From Eledone cirrhosa (lineage: Eukaryota), in assembly GCA_964016885.1 (NCBI GenBank), contig OZ024743.1, forward strand, positions 183,458,001-183,522,000: a stretch of DNA of 64,000 nucleotides, given 5' to 3'. Position numbers and translations under genes: made by a program. Below the pieces are notes generated by a model. The model ran no database searches and had not been told where the DNA came from. It saw only the letters and a program-made list of their open reading frames with translations. Below, in pieces: positions 991 to 64,000 of this stretch; position 1 is the first letter of the stretch; each line of letters starts with the position of its first letter.

Positions 991-1144
991 ACTTTATTAT
1001 ATATATTATATATAATACAACATTCCTCTCTCTTTCTTACTCTGTCTTTTTAGATAGATATAGAACTATAAGGTCGCGCGCTTATAATATCTGTATGTCT
1101 ACATTGACTTCGCTTCTAACCAACTTTTAATTATATATTCGTGT

Positions 1145-1450
1145 ACATATTTTCAACAGTAATACTGTACTATATGTTTTCAACAGTAATACTATACTAC
1201 ATATTTTCAGCAGTAATACTATATATTTTCAACAGTAGTACTGTACTATATATTTTCAACAGTAGTACTGTACTATATATTTTCAACAGTAATACTGTAC
1301 TACATATTTTCAACATTAATACTATACTATACTATATATTTTCAACATTAATACTATATATTTTCAACAGTAATAGTATACTATATATTTTCAACAGTAA
1401 TACTATATATTTTTAACAGTAATATTATATTATATATTTTTAACAGTAAT
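1145..1450. repeat. AT-rich minisatellite, ~19-27 bp unit (TATATTTTCAACAGTAATACTA)
   Basis: About 13 imperfect tandem copies visible. This explains the spurious ORF 1141-1416. Confidence 0.9.
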
Positions 1451-1757
1451 CTATATATCTAAAACAGAGAATGTCTGTCTGACTCCCTAAAACTCGAGAA
1501 CCACCCAACCGACTTTTTCAAAACTTTACACATGTAAAACTTATGGTCCTGTGAGTGTTTTGAGCAAAAAAAATTTCAAATTTCCAATGCCCTAGGGACG
1601 GCATTAGGCGATCTCTCTCTTTAATTCTTATTCTTTCTTTTTAGATAGATACATAGATATAACATTGCACCCTTATAATATCTGTCTGTATGTCTGGCTG
1701 TCTGCATTACAACATTATGACACTATGTGTGTGTGTGTATATATGTATATATATATA

Positions 1758-1790
<33 letters not shown>

Positions 1791-2195
1791 CTTTGGGAGG
1801 GTCATACTGCCAATAAATACACACACAACCAGTCGGTTTTACTTCAATAAATTTCCGGTTCGTTGGTTCGATAACCGGATGGTTGTTTATATATTGTCAA
1901 AGCTCTTTTGTCACACATTCTGTGACCTCAGTGACTGGGTTTTTATTTTGTGTCCCTCCTTCGTTCAGTCTTACACCATCTTGTTTTTGTGTATTGTGTG
2001 CTGTGTGCTTGGTTTGCAAACCAAGTACACAGCACACAGAATGTGTGATGAAAGAGCTTTGACAATATATAAGCAACCATCCAGTTGTCGAACCAACCAA
2101 CTGGTTATCAAACCAACCAACCAGAAATTTATAATAAATTGAAGTGAAAGCCAACAGGTGCATGTGTTTTTATTGGCAACATGACCCTCCCAGAG
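1791..2195. mobile_element. Foldback MITE (Tc1/mariner-like, TA target)
   Basis: TIRs CTTTGGGAGGGTCATACTGCCAATAAA and TTTATTGGCAACATGACCCTCCCAGAG, flanked by TA. Internal inverted repeats ~1855-1925 vs ~2035-2104 and a central hairpin ~1997-2036. Confidence 0.8.
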
Positions 2196-2262
2196 TATAA
2201 CAATATCCGTTTCAACACACGTTTTCAGATAAGAAATCTTGCAAAACAAATTAAAAAATGAA

Positions 2263-2300
<38 letters not shown>

Positions 2301-2327
2301 TTTCACGTCCGCTTTTCCCTGCTTGCA

Positions 2328-2383
<56 letters not shown>

Positions 2384-2584
2384 ATATTATATATATATTG
2401 ATATAAGCTCACTTTCTTGGCTAAAACACAATATATTTATGATATATATATATACAGGGTGGGCTGTAAGTCTACGCAAAAGCATTAAAAACAATTTAGC
2501 ATACTGTACATTGTATTGTATTAATAACAAAAATTATATTGAAATAACAAAGATGTCATTTTCAGCATTCTTTCATCTGTAATT

Positions 2585-2789
2585 TTAACCCTTTAGCATT
2601 TAAACTGGCCATACCTGGCCAAAATTCTCTCACCTTTTTCAGTTCAAACTGGCTGCTCATACTGACGTTAAGGTATTGTTCTCAAAATAAATAACATCGA
2701 AATTTCGTAGCTTCAATATTATGTGAGATAATGCCTTTACCACAAAATACAATAGTATATGTAGAGTAATGTAAATGTTAAAGAGTTAA
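2585..2789. mobile_element. piggyBac-like MITE
   Basis: TTAA-CCCTTTAGCATTT ... AAATGTTAAAGAG-TTAA ends. Related copies at ~45801-46342 and ~53964-54147. Confidence 0.7.
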
Positions 2790-3298
2790 GGTACTGAGTG
2801 AGTCCAATGGTTGATATATTGCATGACTGGTATTGGTTTTGGTGTGTGAGTTAAGGCGCTCTCTCTCTCTCTATATATATATAATATAAATGCCTGGCTC
2901 TGATAGACCTTCCTACATGATAATTACCCCATAAAAAGCCCCCATCCCCCCACACTTAAAATCAAAGAGTGGAAAAGGAAGATAGAGAAACTCCAAAAGA
3001 AGCAGTAAGCCAAGAAGAACAAGAAGAATGTTTACAAGAGAACAATATACATTGTATTATTAAACCAAATAAGTTGAAACATTTAATATTTTGGTCAGCT
3101 GTCCACATATGTCCCCACATATGTCCACACTAGAATGTTATGTCTGACCATTTTTGTTATATTTTCCTGGAGTTTCCAAGGAACAAAATAAAGAAGCCAG
3201 CAATTTGTAATACATCAGACAAAAGGAGATTTTTTTAATTAATATAATAGTAGTGTGTGTGTGTATATATCATCATTTTACGTCCGTTTTTCCATGCT

Positions 3299-3332
<34 letters not shown>

Positions 3333-3459
3333 AAAGTTCCATTTAAATTGTTGGGATACAACAAGCAAACACTTTTATAACTGATATAAAGCACTCGACA
3401 AGTAATTGGAGTAAATATACGATATTAACAAATGGAAACTATATTTATAAAACCATATC

Positions 3460-3524
3460 TATTTTATTATACATATTTCAAGGATACCATGTTAAATTAT
3501 GGTATGCTTTCATCAGACAAAATA
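3460..3524 (-). ncRNA. Mirror copy of the hammerhead motif in the left arm of the inverted repeat
   Basis: Exact reverse complement of 3651-3715. Confidence 0.6.
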
Positions 3525-3650
3525 CAATATATAACAGTTTTATAAATAAATTTTAACATACCCTTTCAAAATATCCTGATGTCTTCCAAAAGTAACGGCT
3601 GCATTTTGAAAGAGTATGTTAAAATTTATTTATAAAACTGGTATATATTG

Positions 3651-3715
3651 TATTTTGTCTGATGAAAGCATACCATAATTTAACATGGTATCCTTGAAAT
3701 ATGTATAATAAAATA
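3651..3715 (+). ncRNA. Type I hammerhead ribozyme motif (Penelope-like minimal type)
   Basis: Stem I TATTTTGT (3651-3658) pairs with ATAAAATA (3708-3715). Core CTGATGA 3659-3665. Stem II AAG-c-ATACCAT/ATGGTAT-c-CTT. GAAA 3696-3699. Self-complementary stem III ATATGTAT. Predicted cleavage after AUA (3707). Confidence 0.6.
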
Positions 3716-3754
3716 GATATGGTTTTATAAATATAGTTTCCATTTGTTAATATC

Positions 3755-3796
<42 letters not shown>

Positions 3797-4741
3797 CTTT
3801 TCATATATATATATGAATCTTTTTATATTACAAACACTACTACCCCAAGTATCGAGTACTCTGGTGGGTTATGGTTTAGATGGTTTTTACCACACCTTAT
3901 CTGATATATATATATATTTATATAAGGTAGTGCTGGTGTCATGATAAAATTCATCTAGCCTACTCTGTAAAAGTGCTAATGGTGCCACAATGAAAAGCAG
4001 CTAGTTCACCCAGTAAGGTGGTAGTGTTTGAGTCACAATATAATGTTCTCAGTAAACACTGTAAAGTGGTTCGTGTGAGGAAAGACATACAGTTATAGAA
4101 AACCAAACCCAAAATGGAGTACATGAGCAAGACATGGTCACCTGACCTGTGTAGCCTCAGTAAGATGTGGTCACCCGACCTATCTAGCTTCAGTACATGA
4201 CAACCACATGGTCACCTGACCTGCCTAGCCTCAGTACACGACAACCTGTCTAATCCAAGCAAACATGTAAAATAGATGTGATGATGATGGTGATGATATA
4301 CTTTACTGGTATTTTTCTTCCATTTAGCTTTGAAAAACAAAATTAAGTCAAGTTCATTGAATCTAAAAAGGTAATGTTGACTAACCACACAGCCACCACC
4401 CACCACTTCAACTAAGGTAATACAGGGAATTGACAACAGCTGACCTTGTTACCAGCAAGAGTAAACAACATAATATATTGTCTTCTGACAGAAGTACAAA
4501 TGTATCAGAATTTGACACTCAAACAAGATGCTGTGATATTCATGCCTTTCCCATGACAAAAGTTAAGTAAATTAACTGAAAATAAGATATTGAAAACATA
4601 CAACAGATGTAGCTTAGTTGTTCTCTATGTAACGACAATGACAACAGTAACAACAACAGCAACAACAGCAACAAAACATAACATACTTGAAGCTAATTAG
4701 GCATGTGTGTGTGTGTATATACATATCTATATATGTGTTTA

Positions 4742-4781
<40 letters not shown>

Positions 4782-4852
4782 CTGTATAAACCTGTTTGTC
4801 AAGAAACTGCTCATAAAACATTACCACCTACAAAATATTTACGGTGTGAGTA

Positions 4853-4901
<49 letters not shown>

Positions 4902-5496
4902 TCATATATACACACACCCACCCAGTTGAGAGAGGCTAAATACTGTGTGAGTGTGAGAAAAAACCTGGTCTGAGGTTGTTAGAGCTGATCTCATATCCCT
5001 GAACCTAATAAAGGAGATGATGAAGGAACACAAGTTGGGGCTGTGCTGGAAAATACCTGTCAAACCCATACAAGCAAGGATGATGAAATATATAAATACT
5101 AAAACATAGGAAACAAATAGAGAAATAGGAAGTTGTGATGTTCATGGCTTTCTTTAGATGGTTACTTGTTAAAATAGAAATAAATACCCCAATTGGGATA
5201 TAGAGATTGTAAGTTGAAACATTGTGATTAAGAAAGAAACATAAAAACAAACTTCCTCCTCTACAAAAAAACTGTTTAACATTAAATAGTTATAAGCTAT
5301 ATTTTAGCTGAATTAAGGCATGTGACTGTGGGGACCCTGACCAGACAATACTGCATGTTGTTCAGGATTGCCCCCTCAGATGTTTTCTCGGTGGCCTGGA
5401 GGCAATCCATAAAGCTGCAAATGATACCTTGGTCTGACTCGCTGGTCTCGACCTGCTTCTCTAACTATTGTGCATATGTCATACTACTTGTACTAG

Positions 5497-5529
<33 letters not shown>

Positions 5530-5804
5530 AACCATAATACTACAAATCATATCTTGGTCTGACTCACCAGTCTCGACCTGCTTCTCTAACTATTGTACAT
5601 ATTTCATACAACAAGAAGATGAAGCTGAATTATGACTATGGACAAGTTCCTTGGGAACATTTGCAGAACACATATACAACAAAGAGGGGCTACATATTTA
5701 TAGACCTCATGTTTAATTAGAAAATAATATTTGTAATACAACTAAGAGTTAATGTATGAAAAATGTTGAAATGAGAAGAGTATCTGCATAAAATTGTTAC
5801 CAGA

Positions 5805-6720
5805 CACTGGTCAGTCTAAATCAAAGAGGACAGATTCATTTGAGGCCAGATGATGATGGTCAACAAACCTCACCCTTCTACGTACAACAGCAGTTGTATG
5901 TGGCAGACCATTATATATCTCTTGGAGAGTCTTGTATTCCCTCCGGTTTATGTTCTGAAAGCATCTGAGAACGACTGTCAAGACGTCTGTGTTGCTTGGC
6001 TGAGAGTGTCCAAGTCTCATTACCATAGAGTAGTATTAGCTGGATTGTGATTTGGAAGAGCCTGAATTTGGAGAAGTTAGGAAGACTGGAGCACCAAATA
6101 TGGTCTAACTCAGTCATGGGCAACTTGTGGCCAACGAAGCTTTCTGAATGGCTTGCCTAAGTCATCTAAGTGATATCTTTCTGATTTTTTTACCTCAACT
6201 TTTCAGTCGTAATTTATCTTTCTATCATTTTTACGATCAAGGAAAACAACGTGTACGAATTCTGAAGAAACAAATCAAAACCTGAGTTACCCCCCACCTT
6301 TTTATGTGGGCACAAATGTAAATTAGCGTTTGCGGCTTGCCTGATGATGAGCTCTCATGTGGCCCGTGTCTCGAAAAAGGTTGCCCATGCTTGGTCTAAC
6401 TTGTTGCAAACTGACCATTTTGGGGTTTTTCTGGTGGTAAAGTCCTTCTCTGAATCTATGACACTGGACATGAGGTACTTAAAGTTTTCAACCTTTTTGA
6501 TAGTACTGCCATCATGAGCTTTGAGGATGAATTCAGATGAAGAGTTAGAGATGTATTCTGTCTTGCCTTCATTAAGGTGAAGGCCGATGAGGGCAGCTGC
6601 TTCTTGAAGTGAAATAAGGAAATGTTGGGCATTCTCCATGCAGTCTGCTAGAAGAGAAATATCAGCAAAGTCAAAATCTGTGAGATGAGTTGAGGGGTGT
6701 CTGAAGGGGTCACAGCAAAC
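5805..6720 (-). pseudogene. 5'-truncated, decayed RTE-type LINE (RT C-terminal part), interrupted by a hAT MITE
   Basis: Translations LTDFDFADISLL...GLHLNEGKTE...FKYL...CNKLD|HIW...LLYGNETWTL...LYNGLP resemble non-LTR RT domains 5-7 and thumb. The frame is restored when MITE 6111-6393 plus one TSD copy is removed. Confidence 0.85.
6111..6393. mobile_element. 283-bp hAT (Buster/Charlie-like) MITE
   Basis: TIRs CAGTCATGGGCAACTT and AGGTTGCCCATGCTTG. 8-bp TSD GTCTAACT at 6103-6110 and 6394-6401 with central TA. Confidence 0.9.
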
Positions 6721-6952
6721 TCTCATATCCAAGGAGGCTGATGTTCACATTTAGGACCTAGCTACTGCCATGAGCAACAACCACGTGGAAATTTATCATT
6801 GAGTCTATTTCAGCAGAGGCCACAGGATGATGAAGAAGTCTAAAGTGACCAACAAAACCAAACAATGGAAAGTTGATGTGTTTGGAAATGTGGATGAGGA
6901 AATTGGTTATGCCTAACAGCGGAGGTGATGGAAACTGAAGTATCAAACATTA

Positions 6953-7152
6953 CAGACAAAAAAGGTCATTTACTATCCTAACATCTGCGGTAATGGCAAC
7001 TGAAATGTTGTAGAATAGAAATGGTTTGGTCAAGCACTGCAGACACAAAAGGTCATTTACTATCCAAACAGCTGTGGTAATAGCAACTGAAATGTTGTAG
7101 AATAGACACGGTTTGGCCAAGCACTGCAGACACAAAAGGTCATTTACTATAT
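6953..7152. repeat. ~87-bp tandem repeat, ~2.3 copies
   Basis: AGACA(A/C)AAAAGGTCATTTACTAT recurs at ~6953, 7041 and 7128. Confidence 0.85.
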
Positions 7153-9021
7153 CCTAGTATGATAAAGTTATGTGGTCACTTGATCTGCAAGAAATAGAAG
7201 TCAAGTTTCCTCATATCACACTCTAGTGTCTTAAAAAGAAAAGACAGGATCTATTAGATAATATAGTCTTAGTTATGCTGTGTTTTGAAAAAAAAAAAAA
7301 AAACTAAACCAAAAAACTGGCTAGTTGTGGTTGGAATGCCTTTGTAAATATGCTTGACCAGAGTTGACCTCAAGTTAAATAATTACTATATTATGACTCA
7401 TCTGAACATTGTGTCACAAGACTGAGGGCCCCTGCTATTTTCTCTCACTTAGTATAATATAATTTCAGCACAAGTTAAGGTAGCCCTTAATGATGTTGAT
7501 GGTATCAATTGAAATATTGTTTGAAGAGTGTAAACTTTAAATTAGGACCAAATATTTATGCAGAGATAACCCATGATTACCAGGAATATAGGAAGAGAAA
7601 GATGAAGTGTTTCAATAATACTTTTACTTTTCCATCTTGCCACTCCCCTCCTCTCATCATTTGTTTTAGGAATGTTTAATGTGTCAGATCAAAGGATGAG
7701 AGGCCATTGTTAGGAAATGGCTCTAGTTTTTGTCAATATTTGTGTCACTTCAAGCAAACTGTCCATAATTATATTGTTAAGTAAATAAATGTTGTATGTG
7801 ATGAGGGCTAAATATGACTGAATGTTTAGTCTGTTTCATTGGTTATCTGGTCAACAGAACCACGTTAAAGAAGGAATTATGCTGAACTAGTGACTGGAGG
7901 TAGTGGTATTGTTTTGATATAGGGAATACCTCCCATTTTACCATTACAAAATATTCTGATTGGTAAAGGAAGGAGTTTAATCTGATATGAAGTGAATGGA
8001 TTGGTGTAGATATTTATTCTAGGATAAAACTGCTGACGAGAGCGAGAGTTGTTGTTGGTGTAGATATGTATTCTGGGACAAAACTGCCGAGATGTTTGAG
8101 GGAGAGCTATTGTGAATTTGTTGAGATTGTCATCATGAATATTGATTAGCCCCTTTGATACCAAACTACCCCTAGTTTTACAATACAGTTTGTTTTAAAG
8201 GGTTTATATTTATCTAAAAACTTTCCATCATAGTTTTATGTTAGAACCTTTGTTCCAAACTGCCTCTGGTTTTACAATACTGTTTGTTTTAAAGTGTTTA
8301 TGTTTCTAGCAGGCCAAGTGACCATATAGAGGCTCCCTTGAATTACTATGAGGGTATATCATAGAACAAATTATCTTGTAGGTTTTTCATTGAGTCATGC
8401 TTAACAAAGTTCAATTATGTCTTTTATTATAGAAGCAGCACCCCAGCATGGCCTCAGCCAGTTGGCGGGAACATGTAAAAGAGTAAATTAGATCCGAATT
8501 AAAAGGCCTAGTTTTATTATCTCTAGCTCAGATTGTATAGATTTAATAGAGCATTAAACACTTAACATGACTCAGCTCACTTCATCTGACACCCCTCAAA
8601 TGGGGTGACACTTTTGTATTCTGAACTGAAATCTGGCTGAGACTAACTTGAGTGGTAAAATATTGACTGATTTAATACCACCACCATCCAGCTGTTGGGT
8701 GCCTTTAGCAGAGTCCACTCTGTTGCAAGAAATCAAGCCTGGTCGTCTCCTCTACCTTGAAGATAACTTCTTCCCACTTTCCAACTCTCCCAATAATTAT
8801 GGAAGTCCAGAATGACATAGAACCAGGAACAGTTTGGTATAAAAAGTGTTACGATGGCAAGGTGTGATTTGGGGAAGATTCAGCTGCTATTCCTAGAAGC
8901 TCAATAGGGTTGACAACAGTCAAATTTAGGAATAAGTTTCATGTACACATCTACATCTGAGTAGACAAGAGAAAACTGACAATATCATTGCTCTGTTGAT
9001 ACCAAACTGTCTGGTTTTATG

Positions 9022-9770: not shown

Positions 9771-10089
9771 ACATATACCCATGTGTGTATGTGACTATGT
9801 GTGTACACATATACCCATGTGTGTATGACTATGTCTGTGTGTAAAACCAGATATTCCAGACCAAACCAATGTAGGAAGGGATTTATCTTGTTTTTCTAAA
9901 AATGAAATGTTTGTTAATTAGCTTGTACTGACAGCTAATTAGCATTAGTGGAAGATTGTTGAATTACTTCTAAGATCTGATTAATCTAATTATGTCATCC
10001 TAATTTAGGGTTGAGAGACAAAATAATCACAAATGATTAACCCCATTGACTTTGAACGGAGATGAAAATATTTCTTATCTCTGCCTGTA

Positions 10090-10345
10090 AGGAGACATCT
10101 TACCTGTGTCAGACACACTTTTATAATGGAGGTATCTTACCTGTGTCAAACACACCTTTATAATGGAGGTATCTTACCTGTGTCAAACACACTTTTATAA
10201 TGGAGGTATCTTACCTGTGTCAAACACACCTTTATAATGGAGGTATCTTACCTGTGTCAAACACACCTTTATAATGGAGGTATCTTACCTGTGTCAAACA
10301 CAACTTTATATTGGAGGCACCTTATCTCTGTCAAACATGTCTATA
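10090..10345. repeat. 37-bp minisatellite (TATAATGGAGGTATCTTACCTGTGTCAAACACACCTT), ~7 copies
   Basis: TAATGG at 10124, 10161, 10198 and onward. Confidence 0.92.
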
Positions 10346-10595
10346 TATATAATGGGGGCACCTTATCGGTGGTGCCAAGACCAGGGAAATACACCCGTGA
10401 AATGGCTTACCGAATATAAACTGAAATAACTAGGTATCGCAGTTGGGTTTCTACTATCTCTCTCTCTCATATATATATATATACCACTAGTCGGGTGTTT
10501 ATATTTGTTTATGACATATGTATCCTGTCAGTATGTTTAAACCAACATTTTAAAATGTATTTTTAACATTATTTTTTAAATATATTTTCTCGAAG

Positions 10596-12318: not shown

Positions 12319-14408
12319 ATGGAAAGAATGGAAGAACGAGAGAAGCAGGGTACATTACATAGAGATCAGGAGGGAAGCTAGGTGACAAATATACTTAGCT
12401 AGAAGGGAAGCAGAGGATAGAAAATTCAAGCATATTTTGCAACGTGAGGACCAGAAACAGGAGGTGTTCAAGATTGTGAGGCAGTGTGTCAGAGAGAATT
12501 GTGATGTCATTGGAGAGAAGTGTATCCGGAATGATAATGGTGAGCTTGCCCTCATAAGTGCCAAGAAAGCTACATGGAAGAGCCTAGAAAGATTACTAAA
12601 CGAGGAGAATGCATGGGAAAAAGAGACCCTACTCCAAGTGGACCCTATAGAGGGGCCAACAGTACAAGTCAGCAGCAGCGTAGTAAGTAAGGCAATCAAA
12701 GATATGAAGACAGGGAAGGCAACCGGTCCATCGGGTATAGCTGCCAAAAATGCTGAAGGCATCTGGATCGGTAGGTCACACCATAACCACACGGATTGTT
12801 AACCAGGTAATACTAGAGGGTTTCATACCAAAGGATTGGTGCAGTAGCATCATTGTCAAAGGTAAAAGTGATGCAATAGATAGAGGAAACTATAGAGGTA
12901 TAAAGCTGATGGACGAGGTCATGAAAGTAACGGAAAGAGTTATAGCACAGTTGATTAGGGACTGGATGAAACTAGATGAGATGCAATTTGGGTTTGTACC
13001 AGGAAAAGGCACCACTGATGCCCTCTTCCTTGTGAGGCAGTTACAGGAAAAGTACCTAGCTAAAAGTAAGCCGCTCTACCTGGCATTCGTCGATCTGGAA
13101 AAAGCCTTTGACAGAGTCCCTCGTGCTATAATCTGGTAGGCTCTTAGAAAATTAGGAGTAGATGAATGGCTTGTGAAAGCTGTACAAGCTATGTATAGAG
13201 GCGCAGTCAACAAAGTTAGAGTTAGCAACGACTATAGCGAGGAATTTAACATACAGGTCGGTGTCCACCAGAGCTCTGTTCTTAGCCCTCTCCTGTTCAT
13301 CATAGTTTTGCAGGCAATAACGGAGGAGTTTAAAACCGGATGCCCATGGGAACTCCTATATGCAGATGATCTCCCACTTATAGCTGAATCCATGGTTGAA
13401 CTAGAGAAGAAATTCCAAACATGGAAGCAGAGACTAGAAAGAAAGGGTCTCAAAGTCAACCTGACAAAGACTAAGGTTCTTGTAAGTAGACGAGAAAACA
13501 GAACCCAGATCCCCTCAGGGAAATGGCCTTGCTCAGTATGTAGGAACTCCATCCTCTGCCCCAAATGCAAACAATGAGTACACAAGAGATGTTGTGGGAT
13601 CTCAGGAAGTTTAACTAAGAATGTAGGCTTCATATATAGCAGCTGCGCTGGGACAACAAGCAGCAAACGACCACAGGAAACAAGCACCACCAAACTCTGG
13701 GAGGGCTCTGTAGAAACAGTAGACAGCTTCTGCTACCTAGGTGACCGAATTAGCAGCGGAGGTAGGGTTTTGGAAAGTACAATAACTAGGGTAAGAACGG
13801 GATGGAAGAAGTTCAGGGAGCTACTGCTACTGCTAGCTGCAAAAGGCTTTTCACTCAAAATGAAAGGCAGACAGTATGATGTGTGTATACGAACAACAAT
13901 GTAACATGGTAGTGAAACCTGGGCGCTGTCTGTAGAAGACTTGCACAGATTAGAAAGAAACGAAGCTTGCATGCTCCGATGGATGTGTAATAGTGATATA
14001 AGCGAATAGCAAAGCATAAACGAATTGAGAGAGAGACTGGGCATAAGAGGAATCAAATGCTGTGTGCAGGAGAGGAGGTTACGTTGGTATGGACATGTGA
14101 TGTGTATGAAGGATGACAGCTGCATAAAAAGGTGCAGAGCACTAGAAATCGATGGAAGCCGCGGAGTGGGGAGACACAAGAAGACTTGGGATGAGGTGAT
14201 AAAAGCTGACCTTTCCCAATTGCACCTTTCAAGGGCAATGACACACGACCGTGACCTGTGGCTTCACACAGTAATACAGAAGACCCGACTTACCACAGGA
14301 ACAAGCCGAAGCTGAAGCATATAGACAATATGGACACTGCCCACAACAGGACAATCCGTCTAACCCATGCTAGCATGGAAGAACGGACGTAAAATGATGA
14401 TGATGATA
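12319..14408 (+). mobile_element. 5'-truncated RTE-clade LINE (decayed RT ORF with Cys/His finger insertion)
   Basis: GKATGPSG, NYRGIKL, QFGFVPGKGTTDA, AFVDLEKAFDRV, GVHQSSVLSPLLF, LLYADDL, RLRWYGHV motifs with stops and frameshifts. 3' stem-loop CCATGCTAGCATGG and (GAT)n tail. Confidence 0.95.
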
Positions 14409-15885: not shown

Positions 15886-16176
15886 GTAAGTTTTTCATAT
15901 TTTGGAAGAATAATGGACTAAGTTTCTAGCAGTAGTTATTGTGTCTTTTTATCTTCTGACTTTAAACCTGCCTCCTCCCCCCATTTTCATCTCATGTTGA
16001 TAAAATATGTACCAATTAAGTCCCATGACCAAATTAATCACCTCACCCACTAAATTTGTATGTCCTTGTGCTTATGTTAAACCAATAAAAAAATAACGAA
16101 GAGATCATCTCACTATTTGGCAGAATTAATATTTTAGGATGTTAGAAAACTAATGGAAGAATTTTTTACATTTCAG

Positions 16177-16246
16177 CAAAAATAAAAATGAAAATATTGA
16201 AGATGATTTTGGATTAATACCAAGAGAATCAGAAATTTTAAAATCG
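16177..16246 (+). CDS. Glu-rich protein gene, exon
   Basis: TTTACATTTCAG acceptor, (D)KNKNENIEDDFGLIPRESEILKS, GTATTT donor. Phase 2 to 0. Confidence 0.65.
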
Positions 16247-19200
16247 GTATTTATTATTATTATTTTTTAATTAGAAGGTTTTTTTAATGTTTTGTTTTGT
16301 TCTTTATCACACTCTGAGATGGAATTCTTTATCACAAGAATTTCATTACCAATGGCATAATCTATTAAAGAACTGTAAAAACTATAAACCTAACAAAGTG
16401 ACAACTTTAATAGTGTAATCCTTACAGAATGACAACTTTAATGGTGAAAACCTTACAGAGTGACAACTTCAATGGTGTAAACCTTAGGAAATGACAACTT
16501 CAATGGTGAAAACCTTACTGAATGACAACTTCAATGGTGTAAACCTTACAGAGTGACAAATTTAATGGTGTAAACCTTACAGAGTGACAACTTCAATGGT
16601 GTAAACCTTACAGAATGACAACTTCAATGGTGTAAACCTTAGGAAGTGACAACTTTAATGGTGTAAACCTTAGGAAGTGACAACTTTAAGGGTGTAAACC
16701 TTACAGAGTGACAACTTCAATGGTGAAAACCTTACAGAATGACAAGTTCAATGGTGAAAACCTTACAGAATGACAACTTCAATGGTGAAAACCTTACAGA
16801 GTGACAACTTCAATGGTGTAAACCTTACAGAATGACAACTTCAATGGTGTAAACCTTACAGAGTGACAACTTCAATGGTGTAAACCTTAGGAAGTGACAA
16901 CTTTAATGGTGTAAACCTTACAGAATAACAACTTCAATGGTGAAAACCTTACAGAGTGACAACTTCAATGGTGTAAACCTTACAGAGTGACAACTTCAAT
17001 GGTGAAAACCTTACAAAGTGACAACTTCAATGGTGAAAACCTTACAGAATGACAACTTCAATTGTGTAAACCTTACAGAATGACAACTTCAATGGTGTAA
17101 ACCTTACAGAATGACAACTTCAATGGTGAAAACCTTACAGAATGACAACTTCAATGGTGTAAACCTTACAGAATGACAACTTCAATTGTGTAAACCTTAC
17201 AGAATGACAACTTCAATGGTGTAAACCTTACAGAATGACAACTTCAATGGTGTAAACCTTACAGAATGACAACTTCAATGGTGAAAACCTTACAGAATGA
17301 CAACTTCAATGGTGTAAACCTTACAGAATGACAACTTCAATTGTGTAAACCTTACAGAATGACAACTTCAATGGTGTAAACCTTACAGAATGACAACTTC
17401 AATGGTGAAAACCTTACAGAATGACAACTTCAATGGTGAAAACCTTACAGAATGACAACTTCAATGGTGTAAACCTTACAGAATGACAACTTCAATTGTG
17501 TAAACCTTACAGAATGACAACTTCAATGGTGTAAACCTTACAGAATGACAACTTCAATGGTGAAAACCTTACAGAATGACAACTTCAATGGTGAAAACCT
17601 TACAGAATGACAACTTCAATGGTGTAAACCTTACAGAATGACAACTTCAATTGTGTAAACCTTACAGAATGACAACTTCAATGGTGTAAACCTTACAGAA
17701 TGACAACTTCAATGGTGTAAACCTTACAGAATGACAACTTCAATGGTGAAAACCTTACAGAATGACAACTTCAATGGTGTAAACCTTACAGAATGACAAC
17801 TTCAATTGTGTAAACCTTACAGAATGACAACTTCAATGGTGAAAACCTTACAGAATGACAACTTCAATGGTGAAAACCTTACAGAATGACAACTTCAATG
17901 GTGTAAACCTTACAGAATGACAACTTCAATTGTGTAAACCTTACAGAATGACAACTTCAATGGTGTAAACCTTACAGAATGACAACTTCAATGGTGAAAA
18001 CCTTACAGAATGACAACTTCAATGGTGAAAACCTTACAGAATGACAACTTCAATGGTGTAAACCTTACAGAATGACAACTTCAATTGTGTAAACCTTACA
18101 GAATGACAACTTCAATGGTATAAACCTTACAGAGTGACAACTTCAATGGTGTAAACCTTACAGAGTGACAACTTCAATGGTGTAAACCTTACAGAATGAC
18201 AACTTCAATGGTGAAAACCTTACAGAGTTACAACTTCAATGGTGAAAACCTTACAGAATGACAACTTCAATGGTGAAAACCTTACAGAATGACAACTTCA
18301 ATGGTGTAAACCTTACAGAATGACAACTTCAATGGTGTAAACCTTACAGAATGACAACTTCAATGGAGTAAACCTTACAGAATGACAACTTCAATGGTGA
18401 AAACCTTACAGAATGACAACTTCAATGGTGAAAACCTTACAGAGTGACAACTTCAATGGTGTAAACCTTACAGAATGACAACTTCAATGGTGTAAACCTT
18501 ACAGAATGACAACTTCAATGGTGTAAACCTTACAGAGTGACAACTTCAATGGTGAAAACCTTACAGAATGACAACTTCAATGGTGTAAACCTTACATAAT
18601 GACAACTTCAATGGTGAAAACCTTACAGAGTGCCAACTTCAATGGTATAAACCTTACAGAGTGACAACTTCAATGGTGTAAACCTTACAGAATGACAACT
18701 TCAATGGTGTAAACCTTACAGAATGACAACTTCAATGGTATAAACCTTACAGAGTGACAACTTCAATGGTATAAATCTTACAGAGTGACAACTTCAATGG
18801 TGTAAACCTTACAGAATGACAACTTCAATGGTGAAAACCTTACAGAGTTACAACTTCAATGGTGAAAACCTTACAGAATGACAACTTCAATGGTGAAAAC
18901 CTTACAGAATGACAACTTCAATGGTGTAAACCTTACAGAATGACAACTTCAATGGTGTAAACCTTACAGAATGACAACTTCAATGGTGTAAACCTTACAG
19001 AATGACAACTTCAATGGTGAAAACCTTACAGAGTGACAACTTCAATGGTATAAACCTTACAGAATGACAACTTCAATGGTGTAAACCTTACAGAATGACA
19101 ACTTCAATGGTGTAAACCTTACAGAATGACAACTTCAATGGTGTAAACCTTACAGAATGACAACTTCAATGGTGAAAACCTTACAGAATGACAACTTCAA

Positions 19201-22200
19201 TGGTGAAAACCTTACAGAATGACAACTTCAATGGTGTAAACCTTACAGAGTGACAACTTCAATGGTATAAACCTTACAGAGTGACAACTTCAATGGTGTA
19301 AACCTTACAGAGTGACAACTTCAGTGGTGTAAACCTTACAGAATGACAACTTCAATGGTATAAACCTTACAGAGTGACAACTTCAATGGTATAAACCTTA
19401 CAGAGTGACAACTTCAATGGTGTAAACCTTACAGAATGACAACTTCAATGGTATAAACCTTACAGAATGACAACTTCAATGGTATAAACCTTACAGAATG
19501 ACAACTTCAATGGTGTAAACCTTACAGAGTGACAACTTCAATGGTATAAACCTTACAGAATGACAACTTCAATGGTGTAAACCTTACAGAGTGACAACTT
19601 CAATGGTATAAACCTTACAGAGTGACAACTTCAATGGTATAAACCTTACAGAGTGACAACTTCAATGGTGTAAACCTTACAGAATGACAACTTCAATGGT
19701 ATAAACCTTACAGAATGACAACTTCAATGGTATAAACCTTACAGAGTGACAACTTCAATGGTGTAAACCTTACAGAATGACAACTTCAATGGTATAAACC
19801 TTACAGAATGACAACTTCAATGGTATAAACCTTACAGAGTGACAACTTCAATGGTGTAAACCTTACAGAATGACAACTTCAATGGTATAAACCTTACAGA
19901 ATGACAACTTCAATGGTGTAAACCTTACAGAGTGACAACTTCAATGGTATAAACCTTACAGAGTGACAACTTCAATGGTATAAACCTTACAGAGTGACAA
20001 CTTCAATGGTGTAAACCTTACAGAATGACAACTTCAATGGTGTAAACCTTACAGAATGACAACTTCAATGGTATAAACCTTACAGAGTGACAACTTCAAT
20101 GGTGTAAACCTTACAGAATGACAACTTCAATGGTGTAAACCTTACAGAATGACAACTTCAATGGTATAAACCTTACAGAGTGACAACTTCAATGGTGTAA
20201 ACCTTACAGAATGACAACTTCAATGGTGAAAACCTTACAGAATGACAACTTCAATGGTGTAAACCTTACAGAATGACAACTTCAATGGTGTAAACCTTAC
20301 AGAATGACAACTTCAATGGTGTAAACCTTACAGAATGACAACTTCAATGGTATAAACCTTACAGAGTGACAACTTCAATGGTATAAACCTTACAGAGTGA
20401 CAACTTCAATGGTGTAAACCTTACAGAATGACAACTTCAATGGTGTAAACCTTACAGAATGACAACTTCAATGGTGTAAACCTTACAGAGTTACAACTTC
20501 AATGGTGTAAACCTTACAGAATGACAACTTCAATGGTGTAAACCTTACAGAATGACAACTTCAATGGTGTAAACCTTACAGAATGACAACTTCAATGGTG
20601 TAAACCTTACAGAGTGACAACTTCAATGGTGTAAACCTTACAGAGTGACAACTTCAACGGTGAAAACCTTACAGAATGACAACTTCAATGGTGTAAACCT
20701 TACAGAATGACAACTTTAATGGTGTAAACCTTACAGAATGACAACTTCAATGGTGTAAACCTTACAGAGTGACAACTTCAATGGTGTAAACCTTACAGAG
20801 TGACAACTTCAATGGTGTAAACCTTACAGAATGACAACTTCAATTGTGTAAACCTTACAGAATGACAACTTCAATGGTGTAAACCTTACAGAATGACAAC
20901 TTCAATGGTGTAAACCTTACAGAATGACAACTTCAATGGTGTAAACCTTACAGAGTGACAACTTCAATGGTGTAAACCTTACAGAATGACAACTTCAATG
21001 GTGTAAACCTTACAGAGTGACAACTTTAATGGTGAAAACCTTACAGAATGACAACTTCAATGGTGTAAACCTTACAGAATGACAACTTCAATGGTGTAAA
21101 AGTTACAGAATGACAACTTTAATGGTGTAAACCTTAGGAAGTGACAACTTCAATGGTGTAAACCTTACAGAGTGACAACTTCAATGGTGTAAACCTTACA
21201 GAGTGACAACTTCAATGGTGTAAACCTTACAGAATGACAACTTCAATGGTGAAAACCTTACAGAATGACAACTTCAATGGTGAAAACCTTACAGAGTGAC
21301 AACTTCAATGGTTAAAACGTTACAGAATGACAACTTCAATGGTGAAAACCTTACAGAGTGACAACTTCAATGGTGTAAACCTTAGGAAGTGACAACTTTA
21401 ATGGTGTAAACCTTACAGAATAACAACTTCAATGGTGAAAACCTTACAGAGTGACAACTCCAATGGTATAAATCTTACAGAGTGACAACTTCAATGGTGT
21501 AAACCTTACAGAATGACAACTTCAATGGTGTAAACCTTACAGAATGACAACTTCAATGGTGTAAACCTTACAGAATGACAACTTCAATGGTGTAAACCTT
21601 ACAGAGTGACAACTTCAATGGTGTAAACCTTACAGAATGACAACTTCAATGGTGTAAACCTTACAGAATGACAACTTCAATGGTATAAACCTTACAGAGT
21701 GACAACTTCAATGGTATAAATCTTACAGAGTGACAACTTCAATGGTGTAAACCTTACAGAATGACAACTTCAATGGTGAAAACCTTACAGAGTTACAACT
21801 TCAATGGTGAAAACCTTACAGAATGACAACTTCAATGGTGAAAACCTTACAGAATGACAACTTCAATGGTGTAAACCTTACAGAATGACAACTTCAATGG
21901 TGTAAACCTTACAGAATGACAACTTCAATGGTGTAAACCTTACAGAATGACAACTTCAATGGTGAAAACCTTACAGAGTGACAACTTCAATGGTATAAAC
22001 CTTACAGAGTGACAACTTCAATGGTGTAAACCTTACAGAGTGACAACTTCAGTGGTGTAAACCTTACAGAATGACAACTTCAATGGTATAAACCTTACAG
22101 AGTGACAACTTCAATGGTATAAACCTTACAGAGTGACAACTTCAATGGTGTAAACCTTACAGAATGACAACTTCAATGGTATAAACCTTACAGAATGACA

Positions 22201-25200
22201 ACTTCAATGGTATAAACCTTACAGAGTGACAACTTCAATGGTGTAAACCTTACAGAATGACAACTTCAATGGTATAAACCTTACAGAATGACAACTTCAA
22301 TGGTGTAAACCTTACAGAGTGACAACTTCAATGGTATAAACCTTACAGAGTGACAACTTCAATGGTATAAACCTTACAGAGTGACAACTTCAATGGTGTA
22401 AACCTTACAGAATGACAACTTCAATGGTATAAACCTTACAGAATGACAACTTCAATGGTATAAACCTTACAGAGTGACAACTTCAATGGTGTAAACCTTA
22501 CAGAATGACAACTTCAATGGTATAAACCTTACAGAATGACAACTTCAATGGTATAAACCTTACAGAGTGACAACTTCAATGGTGTAAACCTTACAGAATG
22601 ACAACTTCAATGGTATAAACCTTACAGAATGACAACTTCAATGGTGTAAACCTTACAGAGTGACAACTTCAATGGTATAAACCTTACAGAGTGACAACTT
22701 CAATGGTATAAACCTTACAGAGTGACAACTTCAATGGTGTAAACCTTACAGAATGACAACTTCAATGGTGTAAACCTTACAGAATGACAACTTCAATGGT
22801 ATAAACCTTACAGAGTGACAACTTCAATGGTGTAAACCTTACAGAATGACAACTTCAATGGTGTAAACCTTACAGAATGACAACTTCAATGGTATAAACC
22901 TTACAGAGTGACAACTTCAATGGTGTAAACCTTACAGAATGACAACTTCAATGGTGAAAACCTTACAGAATGACAACTTCAATGGTGTAAACCTTACAGA
23001 ATGACAACTTCAATGGTGTAAACCTTACAGAATGACAACTTCAATGGTGTAAACCTTACAGAATGACAACTTCAATGGTATAAACCTTACAGAGTGACAA
23101 CTTCAATGGTATAAACCTTACAGAGTGACAACTTCAATGGTGTAAACCTTACAGAATGACAACTTCAATGGTGTAAACCTTACAGAATGACAACTTCAAT
23201 GGTGTAAACCTTACAGAATGACAACTTCAATGGTGAAAACCTTACAGAATGACAACTTCAATGGTGTAAACCTTACAGAATGACAACTTCAATTGTGTAA
23301 ACCTTACAGAATGACAACTTCAATGGTGTAAACCTTACAGAATGACAACTTCAATGGTATAAACCTTACAGAGTGACAACTTCAATGGTGTAAACCTTAC
23401 AGAATGACAACTTCAATGGTGAAAACCTTACAGAATGACAACTTCAATGGTGTAAACCTTACAGAATGACAACTTCAATGGTGTAAACCTTACAGAATGA
23501 CAACTTCAATGGTGTAAACCTTACAGAATGACAACTTCAATGGTATAAACCTTACAGAGTGACAACTTCAATGGTATAAACCTTACAGAGTGACAACTTC
23601 AATGGTGTAAACCTTACAGAATGACAACTTCAATGGTGTAAACCTTACAGAATGACAACTTCAATGGTGAAAACCTTACAGAATGACAACTTCAATGGTG
23701 AAAACCTTACAGAATGACAACTTCAATGGTGTAAACCTTACAGAATGACAACTTCAATTGTGTAAACCTTACAGAATGACAACTTCAATGGTGTAAACCT
23801 TACAGAATGACAACTTCAATGGTGAAAACCTTACAGAATGACAACTTCAATGGTGAAAACCTTACAGAATGACAACTTCAATGGTGTAAACCTTACAGAA
23901 TGACAACTTCAATTGTGTAAACCTTACAGAATGACAACTTCAATGGTGTAAACCTTACAGAATGACAACTTCAATGGTGTAAACCTTACAGAATGACAAC
24001 TTCAATGGTGAAAACCTTACAGAATGACAACTTCAATGGTGTAAACCTTACAGAATGACAACTTCAATTGTGTAAACCTTACAGAATGACAACTTCAATG
24101 GTGAAAACCTTACAGAATGACAACTTCAATGGTGAAAACCTTACAGAATGACAACTTCAATGGTGTAAACCTTACAGAATGACAACTTCAATTGTGTAAA
24201 CCTTACAGAATGACAACTTCAATGGTGTAAACCTTACAGAATGACAACTTCAATGGTGTAAACCTTACAGAATGACAACTTCAATGGTGAAAACCTTACA
24301 GAATGACAACTTCAATGGTGTAAACCTTACAGAATGACAACTTCAATTGTGTAAACCTTACAGAATGACAACTTCAATGGTGTAAACCTTACAGAATGAC
24401 AACTTCAATGGTGAAAACCTTACAGAATGACAACTTCAATGGTGAAAACCTTACAGAATGACAACTTCAATGGTGTAAACCTTACAGAATGACAACTTCA
24501 ATTGTGTAAACCTTACAGAATGACAACTTCAATGGTATAAACCTTACAGAGTGACAACTTCAATGGTGTAAACCTTACAGAGTGACAACTTCAATGGTGT
24601 AAACCTTACAGAATGACAACTTCAATGGTGAAAACCTTACAGAGTTACAACTTCAATGGTGAAAACCTTACAGAATGACAACTTCAATGGTGAAAACCTT
24701 ACAGAATGACAACTTCAATGGTGTAAACCTTACAGAATGACAACTTCAATGGTGTAAACCTTACAGAATGACAACTTCAATGGAGTAAACCTTACAGAAT
24801 GACAACTTCAATGGTGAAAACCTTACAGAATGACAACTTCAATGGTGAAAACCTTACAGAGTGACAACTTCAATGGTGTAAACCTTACAGAATGACAACT
24901 TCAATGGTGTAAACCTTACAGAATGACAACTTCAATGGTGTAAACCTTACAGAGTGACAACTTCAATGGTGAAAACCTTACAGAATGACAACTTCAATGG
25001 TGTAAACCTTACATAATGACAACTTCAATGGTGAAAACCTTACAGAGTGCCAACTTCAATGGTATAAACCTTACAGAGTGACAACTTCAATGGTGTAAAC
25101 CTTACAGAATGACAACTTCAATGGTGTAAACCTTACAGAATGACAACTTCAATGGTATAAACCTTACAGAGTGACAACTTCAATGGTATAAATCTTACAG

Positions 25201-28200
25201 AGTGACAACTTCAATGGTGTAAACCTTACAGAATGACAACTTCAATGGTGAAAACCTTACAGAGTTACAACTTCAATGGTGAAAACCTTACAGAATGACA
25301 ACTTCAATGGTGAAAACCTTACAGAATGACAACTTCAATGGTGTAAACCTTACAGAATGACAACTTCAATGGTGTAAACCTTACAGAATGACAACTTCAA
25401 TGGTGTAAACCTTACAGAATGACAACTTCAATGGTGAAAACCTTACAGAGTGACAACTTCAATGGTATAAACCTTACAGAATGACAACTTCAATGGTGTA
25501 AACCTTACAGAATGACAACTTCAATGGTGTAAACCTTACAGAATGACAACTTCAATGGTGTAAACCTTACAGAATGACAACTTCAATGGTGTAAACCTTA
25601 CAGAATGACAACTTCAATGGTGAAAACCTTACAGAATGACAACTTCAATGGTGAAAACCTTACAGAATGACAACTTCAATGGTGTAAACCTTACAGAGTG
25701 ACAACTTCAATGGTATAAACCTTACAGAGTGACAACTTCAATGGTGTAAACCTTACAGAGTGACAACTTCAGTGGTGTAAACCTTACAGAATGACAACTT
25801 CAATGGTATAAACCTTACAGAGTGACAACTTCAATGGTATAAACCTTACAGAGTGACAACTTCAATGGTGTAAACCTTACAGAATGACAACTTCAATGGT
25901 ATAAACCTTACAGAATGACAACTTCAATGGTATAAACCTTACAGAATGACAACTTCAATGGTGTAAACCTTACAGAGTGACAACTTCAATGGTATAAACC
26001 TTACAGAATGACAACTTCAATGGTGTAAACCTTACAGAGTGACAACTTCAATGGTATAAACCTTACAGAGTGACAACTTCAATGGTATAAACCTTACAGA
26101 GTGACAACTTCAATGGTGTAAACCTTACAGAATGACAACTTCAATGGTATAAACCTTACAGAATGACAACTTCAATGGTATAAACCTTACAGAGTGACAA
26201 CTTCAATGGTGTAAACCTTACAGAATGACAACTTCAATGGTATAAACCTTACAGAATGACAACTTCAATGGTATAAACCTTACAGAGTGACAACTTCAAT
26301 GGTGTAAACCTTACAGAATGACAACTTCAATGGTATAAACCTTACAGAATGACAACTTCAATGGTGTAAACCTTACAGAGTGACAACTTCAATGGTATAA
26401 ACCTTACAGAGTGACAACTTCAATGGTATAAACCTTACAGAGTGACAACTTCAATGGTGTAAACCTTACAGAATGACAACTTCAATGGTGTAAACCTTAC
26501 AGAATGACAACTTCAATGGTATAAACCTTACAGAGTGACAACTTCAATGGTGTAAACCTTACAGAATGACAACTTCAATGGTGTAAACCTTACAGAATGA
26601 CAACTTCAATGGTATAAACCTTACAGAGTGACAACTTCAATGGTGTAAACCTTACAGAATGACAACTTCAATGGTGAAAACCTTACAGAATGACAACTTC
26701 AATGGTGTAAACCTTACAGAATGACAACTTCAATGGTGTAAACCTTACAGAATGACAACTTCAATGGTGTAAACCTTACAGAATGACAACTTCAATGGTA
26801 TAAACCTTACAGAGTGACAACTTCAATGGTATAAACCTTACAGAGTGACAACTTCAATGGTGTAAACCTTACAGAATGACAACTTCAATGGTGTAAACCT
26901 TACAGAATGACAACTTCAATGGTGTAAACCTTACAGAGTTACAACTTCAATGGTGTAAACCTTACAGAATGACAACTTCAATGGTGTAAACCTTACAGAA
27001 TGACAACTTCAATGGTGTAAACCTTACAGAATGACAACTTCAATGGTGTAAACCTTACAGAGTGACAACTTCAATGGTGTAAACCTTACAGAGTGACAAC
27101 TTCAACGGTGAAAACCTTACAGAATGACAACTTCAATGGTGTAAACCTTACAGAATGACAACTTTAATGGTGTAAACCTTACAGAATGACAACTTCAATG
27201 GTGTAAACCTTACAGAGTGACAACTTCAATGGTGTAAACCTTACAGAGTGACAACTTCAATGGTGTAAACCTTACAGAATGACAACTTCAATTGTGTAAA
27301 CCTTACAGAATGACAACTTCAATGGTGTAAACCTTACAGAATGACAACTTCAATGGTGTAAACCTTACAGAATGACAACTTCAATGGTGTAAACCTTACA
27401 GAGTGACAACTTCAATGGTGTAAACCTTACAGAATGACAACTTCAATGGTGTAAACCTTACAGAGTGACAACTTTAATGGTGAAAACCTTACAGAATGAC
27501 AACTTCAATGGTGTAAACCTTACAGAATGACAACTTCAATGGTGTAAAAGTTACAGAATGACAACTTTAATGGTGTAAACCTTAGGAAGTGACAACTTCA
27601 ATGGTGTAAACCTTACAGAGTGACAACTTCAATGGTGTAAACCTTACAGAGTGACAACTTCAATGGTGTAAACCTTACAGAATGACAACTTCAATGGTGA
27701 AAACCTTACAGAATGACAACTTCAATGGTGAAAACCTTACAGAGTGACAACTTCAATGGTTAAAACGTTACAGAATGACAACTTCAATGGTGAAAACCTT
27801 ACAGAGTGACAACTTCAATGGTGTAAACCTTAGGAAGTGACAACTTTAATGGTGTAAACCTTACAGAATAACAACTTCAATGGTGAAAACCTTACAGAGT
27901 GACAACTCCAATGGTATAAATCTTACAGAGTGACAACTTCAATGGTGTAAACCTTACAGAATGACAACTTCAATGGTGTAAACCTTACAGAATGACAACT
28001 TCAATGGTGTAAACCTTACAGAATGACAACTTCAATGGTGTAAACCTTACAGAGTGACAACTTCAATGGTGTAAACCTTACAGAATGACAACTTCAATGG
28101 TGTAAACCTTACAGAATGACAACTTCAATGGTATAAACCTTACAGAGTGACAACTTCAATGGTATAAATCTTACAGAGTGACAACTTCAATGGTGTAAAC

Positions 28201-63300: not shown

Positions 63301-64000
63301 CAGTAAAAACAGATGTGACACATCACAACCTTGCTAACATACCAACAAAGTACACCAAAAACAGATGTGACACATCACAACCTAGCTCATATTCCTACAA
63401 AGTACAGTAAAAACAGATGTGACACATCACAACCTTGCTAACATACCTACAAAGTACAGTAAAAACAGATGTATGTGACACAACACTACCAAGGTAACAT
63501 ACCTACAAAGTACAGTAAAAACAGATGTGACACATCACAACCTTGCTAACATACCTACAAAGTACACTAAAACAGATGTGACACATCACAACCTTGCTCA
63601 TATTCCTACAAAGTAAAGTAAAAACAGATGTGACACATCACAACCTTGTTAAGATACCTACAAAATACAGTAAAAACAGATGTGACACATCACAACCTTG
63701 TTAACATAACTACAAAGTACAGTAAAAACAGATGTGACACATCACAACCTTCCTCCTATTCCTACAAAATACAGTAAAAACAGATGTGACACATCACAAC
63801 CTTGCTAACATACGTACAAAGTACAGTAAAAACAGATGTGACACATCACAACCTTGCTCACATTCCTACAAAGTACAGTAAAATCAGATGTGACACATCA
63901 CAACCTTGCTCACATTCCTACAAAGTACAGTAAAAACAGATGTGACACATCACAACCTTGCTCACATTCCTACAAAGTACAGTAAAAACAGATGTGACAC
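57380..64000. repeat. 52-bp satellite array (ACAAAGTACAGTAAAAACAGATGTGACACATCACAACCTTGTTAACATACCT), >125 copies, runs off the window end
   Basis: 52-bp periodicity with a conserved core and a variable ~15-nt segment. Lies in an ASH2L intron. Confidence 0.99.

What the first reader, a model, noticed from the sequence alone, without database searches (positions are those of the whole stretch)
3415..3760. Mirror-image hammerhead ribozyme pair embedded in a near-perfect 158-bp-arm inverted repeat
Seen: each arm carries a complete type I hammerhead core (CUGAUGA, stem II, GAAA, AUA cleavage triplet, 8-bp stem I), on + at 3651-3715 and on - at 3460-3524. Stem III (AUAUGUAU) cannot close intramolecularly but is self-complementary with G-U pairs. 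Known: this is the hallmark of minimal Penelope-like-element hammerheads proposed to act as dimers, and Penelope pseudo-LTRs often occur inverted. Inference: this is a recent (2 mismatches) inverted pLTR remnant. A transcript from either strand meets the antisense copy first and the ribozyme second, so it could fold as a long dsRNA (ADAR/Dicer substrate) that masks the ribozyme. That would keep a self-cleaving motif silent inside a probable pre-mRNA.
Basis: partly seen in the sequence, partly recalled or inferred. Interest (0 to 1): 0.75.

Follow-up and report, generated by a model that had tools for sequence, protein, structure and literature searches.

The report
Mirror-image Penelope retrotransposon end pair
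This is an ordinary shortened insertion of a Penelope-type jumping gene whose two mirror-image ends each carry a predicted self-cutting RNA; this genome likely holds thousands like it, and their fixed pattern of one long and one short end suggests how such elements insert.

Summary
The inverted repeat (158-bp arms, 2 mismatches) and both hammerhead cores are real. The element is larger than reported: 3330-3755, between two (TA)n runs. It consists of two 5'-truncated pseudo-LTR ends of a Hydra-clade Penelope-like retrotransposon, joined head to head at a 3-nt overlap. One arm carries a 90-nt tail; the 30-nt 'spacer' is element sequence. Related full-length copies encode an uninterrupted 742-aa protein with a telomerase-like fold and the Hydra motifs. 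The genome holds 490 identical cores and 63,716 related ones (control 1). Stem II covaries, and stem III is self-complementary in at least 94%, fitting the published dimer model; cleavage is untested. Opposite-strand hammerhead pairs and one-sided tails are already published for Penelope elements. A host pre-mRNA or regulatory role has no support here. What remains of interest is mechanistic: joined arms were one long plus one short in 18 of 19 young insertions, never two alike, and fold-back cannot make this copy. That points to priming from both sides of one break. The scan noted similar two-armed ends before on other DNA of this genome.

The parts
3301..3329 (.). (TA)n run, left target flank
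   Evidence: sequence; sister copies end in the same runs
3330..3572 (-). Long arm: 5'-truncated pseudo-LTR copy with tail
   Evidence: 97.6% to the end of full-length copy L031 over 250 nt
3330..3419 (-). Tail of about 90 nt between the short and long end sites; in full-length copies it lies in the 5' UTR, ending about 45 nt before the ATG
3460..3524 (-). Minimal type I hammerhead, predicted cut after 3468
3570..3572 (.). Head-to-head junction, 3-nt overlap shared by both arms
3570..3755 (+). Short arm: 5'-truncated pseudo-LTR copy, starting at the recurrent 5' boundary (-186) and ending at the short end site; includes the 'spacer' 3573-3602
   Evidence: 97.9% to L031 over 195 nt; boundary shared by 12 of 35 arms
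3651..3715 (+). Minimal type I hammerhead, self-complementary stem III octamer 3699-3706, predicted cut after 3707
3756..3793 (.). (TA)n run, right target flank; first 5 nt also match the element

Best explanation
The locus is a shortened insertion of a Hydra-clade Penelope-like retrotransposon in a (TA)n run, made of two pseudo-LTR ends joined head to head, and it was likely formed when both sides of one cut each primed reverse transcription, one at the long and one at the short start site. Shown: identity, boundaries, target, junction, family size, one-long-one-short pattern. Inferred: the element's endonuclease cut the (TA)n run; the two cDNAs stopped early (243 and 186 nt) and annealed at a 3-nt overlap. 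The hammerheads are cargo of the pseudo-LTR, predicted to cut only as dimers or with protein help in element RNA. In this copy they would be buried in a long hairpin if the locus is transcribed, as a by-product and not a host function.
For: Arm matches 98-100% at 44 full-length places among 40 candidates scored of 559. In L031 the same sequence flanks an RT/endonuclease reading frame as direct repeats 4067 nt apart, with an inverted copy upstream. L047 and L051 carry uninterrupted 742-aa frames with RWR, DKT, YRDD, CxCX5C, VVY..YVG, CxxC and CCRH, matching the Hydra definition in PMC8557442 section 11. Model pLDDT 90.3; the top three fold matches are telomerase RTs. Of 27 distinct insertions from the arm search, 19 have directly joined arms (gap 23 nt or less): 18 long+short, 1 short+broken, none alike; 6 have no partner in the locus and 2 have only a distant, more diverged neighbour. 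Tail search: 17 of 19 with a partner long+short, none long+long. Across diverged families: 17 of 21 by script, 20 of 21 after reading the other four by eye, 1 unclassifiable. Each arm here holds sequence the other lacks (spacer, tail), so neither can be a fold-back copy of the other. PMC11167929 (parts 1-2 of 4 read): a Penelope-like protein cuts and extends both strands, starts at two internal sites that bound the tail, and is predicted to be a dimer.
Against: No biochemistry or RNA data for this family. The empty target site was not seen, so duplication or loss at the site is unknown. The tail is about 90 nt, not the published 30-40. Both end sites here match the TA target by about 5 nt, whereas PMC11167929 reports initiation without homology. 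One versus two RNA templates is unresolved: arms within insertions differ at 73 of 3800 sites, 18 of them polymorphic in the family, including both differences in this copy. Samples were best-scoring hits or the first 7 Mb of one contig, and the 20 regions were picked favouring pairs. Pfam does not recognise the ORF; the endonuclease is assigned by motif only.
Confidence: 0.85

Rival explanations
1. Same element, but the inversion arose by self-priming or template switching of one cDNA (fold-back), or by later rearrangement, not by priming from both sides of the break.
For: PMC3846280 (passages) proposes self-priming on an antisense template from palindromes at inverted junctions. Some junctions in a second family are palindromic (by eye). 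13 of 21 junctions overlap by 1-12 nt.
Against: Simple fold-back cannot supply both the spacer on one arm and the tail on the other. The arms differ at two family-polymorphic sites. Later rearrangement would not fix both outer ends at the two start sites.
Confidence: 0.1
2. The pair is a host-relevant switch: a ribozyme kept silent in a pre-mRNA hairpin that feeds ADAR or Dicer.
For: The whole repeat folds at about -224 kcal/mol and removes the hammerhead fold. An earlier scan note (e1-8671701, unchecked) reports edited Penelope hairpins elsewhere in this genome.
Against: Young copy of a family with 490 identical cores; 11 tight mirror pairs in the first 100 rows (by eye). No host-gene domain above Pfam cut-off in 20 window ORFs. 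No A-to-G run in the arms. A single arm is already predicted off.
Confidence: 0.03
3. A MITE or foldback DNA transposon with terminal inverted repeats and a TA target.
For: Near-perfect long inverted repeat in TA context.
Against: Arms are unequal, junctions vary between copies, many copies are single, and the arm is the pseudo-LTR of an RT element.
Confidence: 0.01
4. An assembly fold-back artefact.
For: Long palindromes are prone to misassembly; no listed contig piece bridges the junction.
Against: The arms are asymmetric, differ at two sites, and follow the architecture of dozens of other insertions with different junctions.
Confidence: 0.01

Closest known systems
Hydra clade of Penelope-like elements (Craig et al. 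2021, PMC8557442; passages, section 11 and supplement search hits seen), including Hydra-1_Obim
   Same: Single C-terminal-endonuclease ORF with RW(K/R), DKT, CxCX5C, CxxC and CxH motifs; (TA)n target; hammerhead in the pseudo-LTR; inverted 5'-truncated copy; tail at one end. N-terminal and RT regions resemble the listed Hydra-1_Obim protein by eye.
   Different: Repeat unit about 4.07 kb, not under 3 kb; tail about 90 nt, not 30-40; hammerhead sequence unlike that listed for Hydra-1_Obim, with a zero-loop stem III; very high copy number (29,852 first-look candidates for the RT region).
Minimal hammerheads of metazoan Penelope-like elements (Cervera and de la Pena 2014, PMC4209133; parts 1-2 of 4 read)
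   Same: Type I core, long helix II, palindromic helix III. The paper already reports dual motifs 100-700 bp apart on opposite strands, families with compensatory changes, no monomer activity and low dimer activity.
   Different: Helix II closes with A-U or G-U, not the conserved G10.1-C11.1; stem I is 8 bp; AUA cleavage triplet; 63,716 matches by my pattern against 2,000-9,000 reported per genome there (different descriptors).
PAc Poseidon element of Anolis (Frangieh et al. 2024, PMC11167929; parts 1-2 of 4 read)
   Same: Two start sites bounding the tail, AT-rich target, both strands cut and extended, hammerhead upstream of the start sites.
   Different: Here both sites lie before the ATG, are about 90 nt apart and share about 5 nt with the TA target. 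In the parts read, the paper does not say the two sites are used one per side of an insertion.
Penelope elements of Adineta vaga (PMC3846280, passages) and Drosophila virilis (PMC2377424, passages)
   Same: Head-to-head inverted pseudo-LTRs, tail optional on one of them, overlap at the junction, Asn-rich stretches in the ORF (A. vaga).
   Different: 31-37 bp tails; the tail is described as optional, not as a strict one-per-insertion rule; self-priming is proposed.
Metazoan non-LTR retrozymes (PMC7229834, passages; bioRxiv 10.64898/2026.07.22.740005, part 1 of 5)
   Same: Type I hammerheads linked to Penelope-like elements.
   Different: Retrozymes are head-to-tail tandem, non-coding units; this is a head-to-head fragment of an autonomous element.

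Membership tests
Penelope-like element (EN+) | Telomerase-like reverse transcriptase in a single ORF linked to the repeat | tested here: met
   742-aa frames next to the repeat in L047, L051; best fold matches are TERT, E 2.5e-9; Pfam blank
Penelope-like element (EN+) | C-terminal GIY-YIG endonuclease | tested here: inconclusive
   VVY..YVG motif; Y622, Y635, G637, R646, H650 invariant in 95 relatives; no family or fold hit specific to the domain
Penelope-like element (EN+) | Pseudo-LTRs in direct or inverted arrangement with 5' truncation and a tail | tested here: met
   tail about 90 nt, longer than the published 30-40
Hydra clade | RWK-type motif, DKT, CxCX5C linker, CxxC and CxH near the end | tested here: met
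   RWR 37, DKT 118, CxCX5C 601, CxxC 699, CCRH 725 in L047 against PMC8557442 section 11
Hydra clade | Insertion into (TA)n and hammerhead present | tested here: met
Hydra clade | Length generally under 3 kb | tested here: not met
   repeat unit 4067 nt in L031; the paper says 'generally'
Hydra clade | Phylogenetic placement with published Hydra proteins | not tested
   published sequences seen only in supplement passages and compared by eye
Minimal type I hammerhead of PLEs | Core CUGANGA/GAA and NUH with stems I and II supported by covariation | tested here: met
   40 sequences: 94.3% of cells paired against 84.5% shuffled and 35-58% slid; 8 of 10 stem II pairs change on both sides; stem I changes on one side only. 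Core letters were fixed by the search pattern.
Minimal type I hammerhead of PLEs | Palindromic helix III for dimer pairing | tested here: met
   60,053 of 63,716 cores have one of three self-complementary centres; one pair switches A-U to G-C. Copies are not independent: only about four family-level states.
Minimal type I hammerhead of PLEs | G10.1-C11.1 closing pair | tested here: not met
   A-U 27, G-U 12 of 40 (the U was fixed by the pattern)
Minimal type I hammerhead of PLEs | Self-cleavage as dimer or with protein | not testable with these tools
   needs in vitro assay
Non-LTR retrozyme | Head-to-tail tandem non-coding units | tested here: not met
   head-to-head fragment of a coding element
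MITE / TIR transposon | Fixed symmetric termini shared by copies, no RT link | tested here: not met

The most novel reading that the evidence does not exclude
Hydra-type Penelope elements insert by an obligate two-ended reaction: an asymmetric RT-endonuclease dimer primes both sides of a (TA)n break at two fixed sites about 90 nt apart, one site per side, and short copies run off at a fixed RNA 5' end 186 nt upstream. This would explain the tail, the inverted pseudo-LTRs and solo pseudo-LTRs in one step, and the uninterrupted 742-aa protein makes it testable. Four literature searches touching this found the optional one-sided tail and the two start sites, but not the one-per-side rule; subscription papers were not searchable.
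Probability: 0.4. Interest if true: 0.5.

Novelty: new member of a known kind. Interest (0 to 1): 0.22.

Why it matters
The locus itself matters little: it is one of very many retrotransposon scars of a published kind. The family is a useful resource. It offers tens of thousands of minimal hammerheads with covariation, young copies and uninterrupted reading frames, and a strict one-long-one-short end pattern that bears on how Penelope-like elements form tails and inverted ends, which PMC8557442 names as an open task.

Tried and rejected
Rfam: no hammerhead match, only hairpin-like miRNA models below threshold. Pfam and single-sequence PDB searches missed the ORF; the profile search gave only weak retron RT hits, E 0.022 at best. 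Sequencing runs: no RNA holder listed, which says nothing on expression. Contigs of four runs of unrecorded kind laid on 3530-3757 listed no piece bridging the junction and cannot show RNA ends. RNAalifold on 16 long arms gave no consensus structure. The within-insertion divergence test did not separate one from two RNA templates. My first end classifier misread an internal TA run and was replaced. Earlier-finding look-ups near the locus and by sequence returned nothing. Pfam was not run on the 95-protein alignment. MITE, retrozyme and artefact readings were rejected as under rivals.

Full report
Observation. The inverted repeat is as described: arms 3415-3572 and 3603-3760, 2 mismatches, 30 nt apart. 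Each arm holds a type I hammerhead with an 8-bp stem I, a 3+7-bp stem II, a self-complementary octamer in place of stem III, and an AUA site. Rfam does not score it, but a looser pattern occurs 63,716 times in the 3.0-Gb genome against 1 for the reversed control, and the exact 49-nt core 490 times.

True boundaries. Sister copies show that the element runs from 3330 to 3755 between two (TA)n runs. It has a long arm (3572 to 3330, minus strand, with a tail of about 90 nt) and a short arm (3570-3755, plus strand, including the 'spacer'), overlapping by 3 nt. Both match the end of full-length copy L031 at about 98%. No other part of the element is in the window.

Identity. In L031 the repeat flanks a frameshifted RT/endonuclease region as direct repeats 4067 nt apart, with an inverted copy upstream. 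Of 12 loci fetched for long frames, L047 and L051 carry uninterrupted 742-aa ORFs. Motifs RWR, DKT, YRDD, CxCX5C, VVY..YVG, CxxC and CCRH match the Hydra clade as defined in PMC8557442 section 11. Pfam misses the protein, but 208 relatives were found, the best named one from Argonauta hians at 39%. The model (pLDDT 90.3) matches telomerase RTs best. The host is probably a cephalopod, from that hit and from earlier scan notes; I did not determine it.

Hammerhead. In 40 distinct sequences from several families, 94.3% of cells pair, against 84.5% shuffled and 35-58% slid; 8 of 10 stem II pairs change on both sides, while two of five whole-structure measures did not beat the shuffles. Genome-wide, 20,886 cores have the GCGC centre and 39,167 the ATRT centres, together 94.3% of 63,716, all self-complementary. 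The centre pair is adjacent, so it can form only between two copies. This fits the dimer model of PMC4209133, which found no monomer and low dimer activity, but only about four family-level states were seen, so independent evidence is modest. The window's octamer duplex is weak (-2.2 kcal/mol), and in a single whole arm stem I has probability about 0.04.

How common the mirror pair is. By eye, 11 tight head-to-head pairs (under 400 nt) lie in the first 100 rows and 13 in the first 100 rows; a crude extrapolation gives about 8,000 in the genome. PMC4209133 already reports dual motifs 100-700 bp apart on opposite strands, and PMC8557442 and PMC3846280 describe inverted truncated copies with a tail at one end.

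Mechanism. After dropping duplicate loci (3 of 30 and 5 of 30), 19 of 27 insertions from the arm search have directly joined arms: 18 long+short, 1 short+broken. In the tail search 17 of 19 with a partner are long+short and none long+long. Across diverged families, 17 of 21 pairs were long+short by script and 20 of 21 after reading the rest by eye; regions for this were picked favouring pairs. Ends sit about 43-55 and 130-150 nt past the cleavage site in all families. PMC11167929 showed that a related protein cuts and extends both strands and starts at two sites bounding the tail. I infer that each side of one break primes at a different site. Fold-back of one cDNA cannot give this copy, since each arm holds sequence the other lacks. 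Six of 19 long arms stop within 30 nt of the short site, as expected if both primers share one RNA, but others run past it, and the arms here differ at two family-polymorphic sites, so template number is open. Twelve of 35 arms reaching past -150 stop at -187 to -185, including this one; this may be the RNA 5' end or an ATAT annealing site.

No host-gene domain above cut-off was found in 20 of 23 window ORFs scanned; short exons and expression were not testable. The arms show no A-to-G run. I see no support for a host function.

Verdict. Real, ordinary and of a published kind; a new family of Hydra-clade elements. The end rule is the one point of mechanistic interest. I noted it before the look-up; earlier scan notes describe similar two-armed ends on other DNA of this genome (975 notes fit the words). 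Supplements: only search passages of the PMC8557442 files were seen, so tail lengths or end rules given elsewhere in supplements may have been missed. A 2017 paper on dimer cleavage by Penelope-associated hammerheads is recalled from memory and was not read.

Noticed in passing
window 3330-3419 and 15 long arms of alignment A2: A GAGTGC motif is invariant in 16 of 16 tails, about 56-67 nt before the long end, with a complementary ACTC upstream; a hairpin of differing sequence lies just before the long end in 13 of 16 by eye. Candidate protein-binding or start signal.
   Followed up: partly
window 3570; L094, L113, L132, L133: A recurrent 5' boundary at an ATAT-containing motif occurs in this family and, by eye, in a second family, giving core-to-core spacings near 133-146 nt.
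   Followed up: partly
window 3640-3649 with 3699-3707: In one arm alone an upstream TA-rich run pairs with the stem III palindrome and blocks stem I: a possible built-in off state.
   Followed up: partly
L081: The two arms of one insertion differ at 7 subfamily-type sites within 50 nt, suggesting two templates or conversion.
   Followed up: no
L047 ORF residues 484-508 and 588-596: Asn-rich, low-confidence stretches between RT and endonuclease, as described for A. vaga Penelope.
   Followed up: no
window 12741-13574 and 49895-51466: Fragments of non-LTR retroelements with RVT_1 and endonuclease domains.
   Followed up: no
window 1141-1461, 6943-7150, 10054-10367: Tandem arrays with 22/27-nt, 87-nt and 37-nt units.
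   Followed up: no
window 1780-2206: An older nested inverted repeat, 76-83% complementary.
   Followed up: no
window 16001-30000 and 58001-64000: Long stretches with steady strand skew, probably satellite arrays.
   Followed up: no
window 2290-2330 and 3262-3300: Two similar short repeats next to (TA)n runs, one forming the left flank of the insertion; similar sequence flanks other loci.
   Followed up: no
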